DNA of 64,000 bases from Eledone cirrhosa (Eukaryota). Shown piece after piece: positions 55,567 to 55,617 of this stretch. The first letter of the stretch is position 1, and each line of letters opens with the position of its first letter. Position numbers and translations under genes: made by a program. The notes under the pieces are model-generated. The model saw only the letters and a list, made by a program, of their open reading frames with translations, searched no databases and was not told the DNA's origin. The stretch lies in contig OZ024750.1 in NCBI GenBank assembly GCA_964016885.1, positions 23,002,001-23,066,000 of the forward strand, written 5' to 3'.

Positions 55567-55617
55567 AGATTCTACAGGACTAGAACTGTTTCATTCTTTA
55601 GAAATCATCAGGAATCT
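55567..55617 (-). ncRNA. Minimal type I hammerhead ribozyme (family A relative)
   Basis: Minus strand reads AGATTC CTGATGA T-TTC-TAAA-GAA-T GAAA CAG-TTCTAGTC-CTG TA GAATCT. 6-bp stem I, canonical CUGAUGA; abuts a (TA)n(GA)n tract. Confidence 0.85.

What the first reader, a model, noticed from the sequence alone, without database searches (positions are those of the whole stretch)
55567..55617. Diverged hammerhead copy shows compensatory covariation, arguing for selection on the RNA fold
Compared with 46486-46536 (both 51 nt), stem I changes AGCTTC/GAAGCT to AGATTC/GAATCT, a C-G to A-U compensatory pair. The free N7 core position changes A to U, the stem II loop changes ATCT to TAAA, and the stem III loop changes TACTAGTC to TTCTAGTC keeping the CTAG palindrome. 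All catalytic and other paired positions are unchanged. About 400 bp of unique sequence 5' of it (55620-56050) may be the element body.
Basis: seen in the sequence. Interest (0 to 1): 0.72.

Follow-up and report, generated by a model that had tools for sequence, protein, structure and literature searches.

The report
Hammerhead of a Hydra Penelope retrotransposon
This is one of more than ten thousand near-identical copies of a hammerhead (predicted self-cutting) RNA motif at the end of a known kind of jumping gene; its fold-preserving changes separate element lineages rather than marking this copy, and the motif likely forms the capped start of the element's RNA, which was probably copied into DNA uncut.

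Summary
The eight differences from 46486-46536 are as described. This is not a lone diverged copy: its core occurs 10,296 times in the genome, the 46486 version 2,405 times. It ends a 360-bp, 5'-truncated copy (55563-55922) of a Penelope-like element with Hydra-clade protein motifs and (TA)n targets. Covariation is real but lies between master lineages and only in stem I: about three compensatory events, one through a G-U intermediate. Loop II varies freely; core and stems II/III do not. Inserted copies decay evenly over core, stems and loops (p=0.84), so this locus shows no selection. The loop III change shortens the dimer palindrome. Extra result: a TATA box lies about 30 nt before the motif, truncated copies pile up at its first base with an extra G (960 vs 272), and few start at the cut site (107, control 78). 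The motif is likely the capped transcript start, copied uncut. Hydra hammerheads and family-level covariation are published; this scan noted the capped-start reading before on other DNA. Cleavage is untested.

The parts
55563..55922 (-). 5'-truncated, single-arm copy of the 3' end (pseudo-LTR) of a Hydra-type Penelope-like element; no ORF, no tail
   Evidence: 97-98% identical over all 360 nt to 28 of the 29 other loci fetched (358 nt in the other); 5 differences from the majority of 25 nearest copies, none in the hammerhead
55567..55617 (-). Type I hammerhead motif: stem I 55612-55617 with 55567-55572; core 55605-55611 and 55589-55592; 3-bp stem II 55601-55603 with 55594-55596, flanked by U.U; loop II 55597-55600; stem III with 8-nt loop 55578-55585; predicted cut after GUA, between 55573 and 55572
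   Evidence: sequence; pair counts; same layout as published Hydra hammerheads
55569..55615 (-). The compensatory pair: 55615 (A) with 55569 (U); C-G in the other lineages
   Evidence: 107 copies with native upstream: A-U 88, C-G 14, five scattered mismatches
55640..55647 (-). TATA box, first T 30 nt before the first base of stem I (55617, the inferred transcription start)
   Evidence: 29-33 nt spacing in most of the 114 of 382 copies where it was found; also seen in copies listed without selecting on it, with exceptions such as L161 and L228
55447..55562 (.). (TA)n target with a (TC)n run at the element's 3' end
   Evidence: sequence; sister copies end in (TA)n
46399..46609 (.). Head-to-head mini-insertion of the sister lineage (hammerheads 46486-46536 minus with tail, 46551-46601 plus without), in (TA)n
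   Evidence: lineage count 2,405
24558..24745 (.). Second head-to-head mini-insertion of the same sister lineage

Best explanation
This is the hammerhead motif at the 3' end of a truncated, likely inert copy of an abundant Hydra-type Penelope-like retrotransposon, and its fold was likely kept by selection in the master elements that made the copies, not at this locus. Shown: copy numbers, linkage of the motif to an RT plus GIY-YIG-type ORF whose ATG is at +182, stem I covariation between lineages, and even decay within a lineage. Inferred mechanism: in a tandem element the upstream pseudo-LTR drives a capped mRNA from a TATA box, starting at the first base of stem I. The RT starts inside this RNA at about +67 or +136. 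On mRNA from that promoter it runs off the cap after 70-140 nt and leaves the tiny, often head-to-head copies; on read-through RNA it gives longer 5'-truncated copies such as this one. The ribozyme is likely slow, needing a dimer through its CUAG palindrome or the element's protein. It would cut after base 45 in only part of the RNA, so the templates that reached DNA were uncut.
For: Family size. ORF directly behind motif and tail in L037, L119, L135, with RWR, DKT and YRDD motifs; CxCX5C, YIG, CxxC and CxH in L077, matching the Hydra definition and the published alignment by eye. U.U-flanked stem II and ACAG/CUGU-A stem III occur in published Hydra hammerheads. Lineage covariation. A tree from the tail alone puts the 46486 lineage with G-C lineages (100/98) and this lineage inside the TCAC/TCAT group (96/98), so the outer pair changed twice and pair 3 once, with a G-U state in L051 and L139. 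Neutral decay. Start site: of 92 tail-anchored copies 33 begin at -2..+3, 15 at +4..+10, none at +46..+48; G before +1 in 960 vs A/T in 272; cut-site starts 107 vs 78 at a control position, of 12,370. Internal RT start, uncut template and protein-assisted cleavage were shown for an anole PLE (PMC11167929); an extra G marks the cap in L1 (PMC11702581).
Against: Stems II and III never vary, so they have no covariation support. On the count of pairs with two-sided change the structure does not beat shuffles (2 vs 1.8; 413 of 500), and the 13 rows were hand-picked relatives. The tail is as conserved between the two lineages as the motif (85% vs 82%), and 7 of 8 loop III bases are fixed, so other constraints act here too. 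The tree rests on 88 nt and its bootstrap had not settled. The active monomer fold has probability 0.001. The extra G could come from a one-base fold-back at stem I (C follows the 3' arm), and about 27 of the first 100 G cases (counted by eye) could take their G from the inverted arm. Most other hammerhead families seen in these loci show no TATA at -30. The D. virilis Penelope promoter is TATA-less and internal (PMC2377424).
Confidence: 0.78

Rival explanations
1. The fold is kept as a structure or sequence signal (RT binding, promoter or leader element, short upstream ORF), and catalysis is vestigial.
For: No excess of copies starts at the cut site. Core mutants did not affect insertion in vitro for the anole element. 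The tail is equally conserved. A 4-codon upstream ORF at +24 ends in the loop III TAG in both lineages (and sequence).
Against: The exact CUGANGA/GAAA/UH core is fixed while N7, the one free core base, changes. The same core is kept in many unrelated families here and in published Hydra elements.
Confidence: 0.12
2. The paired stem I changes were made in one step by template switching between the two arms (palindrome correction) during reverse transcription, without selection.
For: 224 of 382 copies have inverted upstream sequence, and junctions cluster at stem I. No recurrent mismatch intermediate was seen for pair 3 (A-G 1, C-U 0 of 107).
Against: The outer pair passes through a G-U state in a whole subfamily, and one group carries a bulged U, which copying would erase. 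The changes sit in copies with native upstream sequence. Copying would not explain the fixed core.
Confidence: 0.06
3. This particular locus is under host selection as a functional ribozyme.
For: Its motif is intact and it keeps the TATA box.
Against: It is identical to thousands of sisters. At about 1.2% decay per site an intact 51-mer is expected about half the time. Sisters mutate evenly.
Confidence: 0.02
4. It is a non-LTR retrozyme, a non-coding tandem hammerhead repeat.
For: Short, non-coding, type I hammerhead, very high copy number.
Against: Single copy with variable 5' ends; sisters run into a PLE ORF; no tandem monomers of this unit appeared among the first 60 loci.
Confidence: 0.02

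Closest known systems
Hydra-clade PLEs and their hammerheads (Craig et al. 2021, PMC8557442; read: passages, sections 3 and 11, supplement part 2 of 59 and search passages)
   Same: C-terminal GIY-YIG, RWK-like and DKT motifs, CxCX5C linker, (TA)n targets, sense-strand type I hammerhead near the 3' end. U.U flanking stem II as in several Penelope_HM families; ACAG/CUGU-A stem III as in Hydra-1_Amil, Penelope-1_NV and Penelope-1_SK.
   Different: A separate family from Hydra-1_Obim (different N-terminus and hammerhead, by eye). Loop III is 8 nt and palindromic, against 1-3 nt in File S2. Tail is about 69 nt; the paper gives 30-40 bp for the PLE tail. The passages read give no start site or promoter for Hydra.
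PLE hammerheads in general (Cervera and de la Pena 2014, PMC4209133; read: parts 1-2 of 4)
   Same: [quoted passage not shown]
   Different: Has a 4-bp helix III, lacks G10.1-C11.1 and the extra base after A9; stem II is short.
Poseidon PLE of Anolis (Frangieh et al. 2024, PMC11167929; read: parts 1-2 of 4)
   Same: Two internal RT start sites that define the tail; uncut RNA as the template; AT-rich targets.
   Different: There the ORF starts inside stem II; here the ATG is at +182. Different clade. That paper did not map a transcription start.
Non-LTR retrozymes (bioRxiv 10.64898/2026.07.22.740005; read: part 1 of 5)
   Same: Short non-coding type I hammerhead repeats related to PLE pseudo-LTRs.
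   Different: Not tandem; part of an ORF-bearing element.

Membership tests
Type I hammerhead ribozyme | Core CUGANGA, GAAA and UH in order | tested here: met
   invariant in the 13 lineage rows except N7
Type I hammerhead ribozyme | Three helices, ends in stem I | tested here: met
   168 of 169 cells paired; two-sided changes only in stem I
Type I hammerhead ribozyme | G10.1-C11.1 pair of canonical motifs (highly conserved, not universal) | tested here: not met
   U.U here; the same variant is listed as canonical for Hydra elements in File S2
Type I hammerhead ribozyme | Self-cleavage after H17 | not testable with these tools
   no assay possible
Hydra-clade PLE | Single ORF, RT followed by C-terminal GIY-YIG endonuclease | tested here: met
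   L135/L185 N-terminal 466 aa and L077 C-terminal part, 91% identical where they overlap; no single intact full ORF was fetched; Pfam gave no match
Hydra-clade PLE | RWK motif and DKT in place of DKG | tested here: met
   RWR and DKT
Hydra-clade PLE | CxCX5C linker, no CCHH, CxxC and CxH around conserved E and N | tested here: met
   L077 translation against the definition
Hydra-clade PLE | (TA)n insertion and sense-strand hammerhead near the 3' end | tested here: met
Hydra-clade PLE | Length generally under 3 kb | tested here: inconclusive
   3' region holds a long microsatellite; no full-length copy measured
Hydra-clade PLE | Placement in an RT phylogeny | not tested
   published proteins compared by eye only
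Non-LTR retrozyme | Tandem monomers, no protein | tested here: not met
   single copy; ORF-linked sisters

The most novel reading that the evidence does not exclude
The hammerhead is the first 51 bases of the element's capped mRNA and acts as a sorting switch. Cutting after base 45 removes the cap and the upstream AUGs inside the motif, sending that RNA to cap-independent translation or decay. Uncut RNA is the template for reverse transcription. This would give PLE hammerheads a function unrelated to cutting unit-length RNA from tandem transcripts. Ribozyme-driven translation was reported for RNA viruses (PMC13725137, abstract only).
Probability: 0.25. Interest if true: 0.65.

Novelty: new member of a known kind. 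Interest (0 to 1): 0.3.

Why it matters
The motif class, its presence in Hydra elements and family-level covariation are published, so the finding as posed is ordinary. What it adds is a clean case that separates selection on master elements from neutral decay of copies, with a wobble intermediate caught. The function of PLE hammerheads is still open (PMC8557442). Genome-wide counts that place this one at the capped transcript start, copied uncut, point to a direct test by CAGE and cleavage assays.

Tried and rejected
Rfam: no hammerhead among the 150 of 216 matches listed for the window, nor among the 5 on the stretch. Pfam: no significant match for two ORF pieces. Expression: no RNA holder listed; 4 of the 24 listed runs were laid and gave no cover; this says nothing either way. 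The repeat finder on the whole window was swamped by microsatellites. The pattern had one letter too many (14 hits); it was used only as a hint of loop II variety. Alignment A1 held a placeholder row and was replaced by A2. Lunse et al. (dimer paper) is not held; seen only as cited in PMC6765202 passages. TATA at -30 as a rule for all hammerhead families in this genome was rejected. No Hydra ORF lies in the window. Rows dropped: 66 of 92 copies lacked 80% upstream identity; 6 of 92 had over 5 mismatches; variants shared by 3 or more copies were set aside as lineage marks (loop II 28, loop III 3, stem I 3); 64 of 353 copies were in groups under 3. Literature searches listed no paper placing a PLE transcription start at the hammerhead's first base; a putative TATA plus Inr in a rotifer pLTR is in PMC3846280 (passage). 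Subscription journals and bioRxiv supplements were not searchable. R-scape and Repbase/Dfam were not available.

Full report
Observation. Random placement of eight changes keeps the core and all 12 pairs in 0.07% of 2,000,000 trials, with the caveat that the motif was chosen because it fits. Rfam has no model that catches it.

What it belongs to. A search of the own genome (3.0 Gb, 1,796 contigs) with 55563-56080 found 2,701 candidate places; the 40 scored match only 55563 to about 55922, at 95-98%. The exact core-to-stem-III motif of this version occurs 10,296 times, the 46486 version 2,405 times, and U7 versions with other loop II sequences 11,947 times; the reversed control pattern was found 0 times in each. 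Sister copies have variable 5' ends, often an inverted partner (224 of 382), and 3' ends mostly at +67 or +133 to +137, followed by (TA)n. In L037, L119 and L135 the motif and tail run on into an ORF whose ATG is at +182. The protein has RWR, DKT and YRDD motifs, and the C-terminal part in L077 has CxCX5C, YIG, CxxC and CxH without CCHH. These are the features that define the Hydra clade (PMC8557442 section 11), and they line up by eye with the published Hydra proteins. Published Hydra hammerheads share the U.U beside stem II and the stem III sequence. The window copy is a single 360-bp arm with five differences from its nearest sisters, none in the motif; 55923 onward is flank.

Selection between lineages. 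In 15 groups of at least three copies (289 of 353 framed copies), stems II and III do not vary. Loop II varies at all four sites, and N7 and one loop III base vary only in the 46486 lineage. The single core difference lies in a 3-copy group with two truncated members; one 3-copy group has an unpaired base in the 3' arm of stem I. On 13 hand-picked lineage rows, two of six stem I pairs change on both sides: outer pair A-U 7, G-C 5, G-U 1; pair 3 C-G 7, A-U 5, U-G 1. Cells with two-sided change exceed all 500 shuffles, but the number of such pairs does not (413 of 500), and the rows are related. Among 107 copies with native upstream sequence, pair 3 is A-U in 88 and C-G in 14. A tree built from the 88-nt tail alone (50 rows, bootstrap not settled) joins the 46486 lineage to G-C lineages (100/98) and nests this lineage among TCAC/TCAT copies (96/98). 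So the two window versions are cousins; the outer pair changed twice and pair 3 once, about three events.

No selection on copies. Copies were picked by a 32-nt tail pattern outside the motif (2,291 in the genome; 92 examined). In the 26 with native upstream sequence, rare substitutions were core 6 on 11 sites, stems 12 on 24, loops and free positions 8 on 16, upstream 35 on 60 (p=0.96). In 86 of 92, using the part beyond the junction zone, they were 6/568, 20/1686 and 17/1250 (p=0.84), with the tail at 53/3870. The counts are small, so only a strong bias is excluded.

Points against a simple fold-only reading. Stems II and III give no covariation. The tail is as conserved between the two lineages as the motif (85% vs 82%; upstream 65%). 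Seven of eight loop III bases are fixed. The active monomer fold has probability 0.001, and this version's dimer helix is weaker than the 46486 one (-12.8 vs -15.2 kcal/mol).

Where the RNA starts. A TATA box sits 29-33 nt before stem I in most of the 114 of 382 copies where it was found, while the spacer diverges; in the window it is 55640-55647. Of 92 tail-anchored copies, 26 run past -20, 6 start at -19..-3, 33 at -2..+3, 15 at +4..+10, 10 at +11..+40, one at +42, none at +46..+48 and one diverged copy at +51. Genome-wide, non-native junctions just before +1 carry G in 960 cases and A or T in 272, where the native base is C. An extra G is the cap mark of full-length L1 insertions (PMC11702581, one passage). 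Starts at the predicted cut site number 107 against 78 at a control position eight bases upstream, out of 12,370 (the two patterns differ in length and filter). I infer a capped mRNA that begins at the motif and is copied uncut from two internal start sites, as shown in vitro for an anole PLE (PMC11167929). A one-base fold-back at stem I is an alternative source of the G; three of three unambiguous cases in lineages where fold-back predicts A or T had G. I put this start-site step at about 0.65. No RNA data bear on it.

Comparison and verdict. It works like the PLE hammerheads of Cervera and de la Pena (PMC4209133), who already reported consensus families with compensatory changes. By motifs it is a new family of the Hydra clade; no RT tree was built, and cleavage is untested. 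I reached the Hydra and start-site readings before opening the scan's earlier notes (stated); those notes show both readings on other DNA of this genome and of other genomes and are not independent support. Interest 0.3.

Noticed in passing
window 26900-27005: Head-to-head pair of a third, unrelated hammerhead family in (TA)n; the minus arm has an intact core, the plus arm is damaged.
   Followed up: partly
window 42930-42990 (-): Truncated 3' half of a related hammerhead (stem III and GUA site) ending in (TA)n.
   Followed up: no
window 33253-40968 (-): Stop-free frame of 2,571 aa, low-complexity and probably one very large host exon.
   Followed up: no
L135 +10, +24, +81: Short upstream ORFs in the inferred leader. 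The +24 one (4 codons) ends in the loop III TAG in both window lineages, and its AUG supplies U11.1.
   Followed up: partly
loci L001-L270: More than ten other type I hammerhead families turned up in about 1.5 Mb of fetched loci, several with U.U beside stem II and palindromic helix III.
   Followed up: partly
L006, L022, L041, L077: The element's own 3' region holds a long (TA/TG)n tract and diverged 130-nt repeats upstream of the 360-bp piece; many copies are truncated there.
   Followed up: partly
tail, +93 to +104: The opposite strand of the conserved tail carries GTAAGT-like splice-donor motifs (motif recalled, not tested).
   Followed up: no
window 7569-7656, 17854-17948, 25960-26133: Long near-perfect inverted repeats that gave sub-threshold microRNA matches; probably other fold-back elements.
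   Followed up: no
window 49376-50071 and 59676-60595: Minisatellites of 29-nt and 31-nt period.
   Followed up: no
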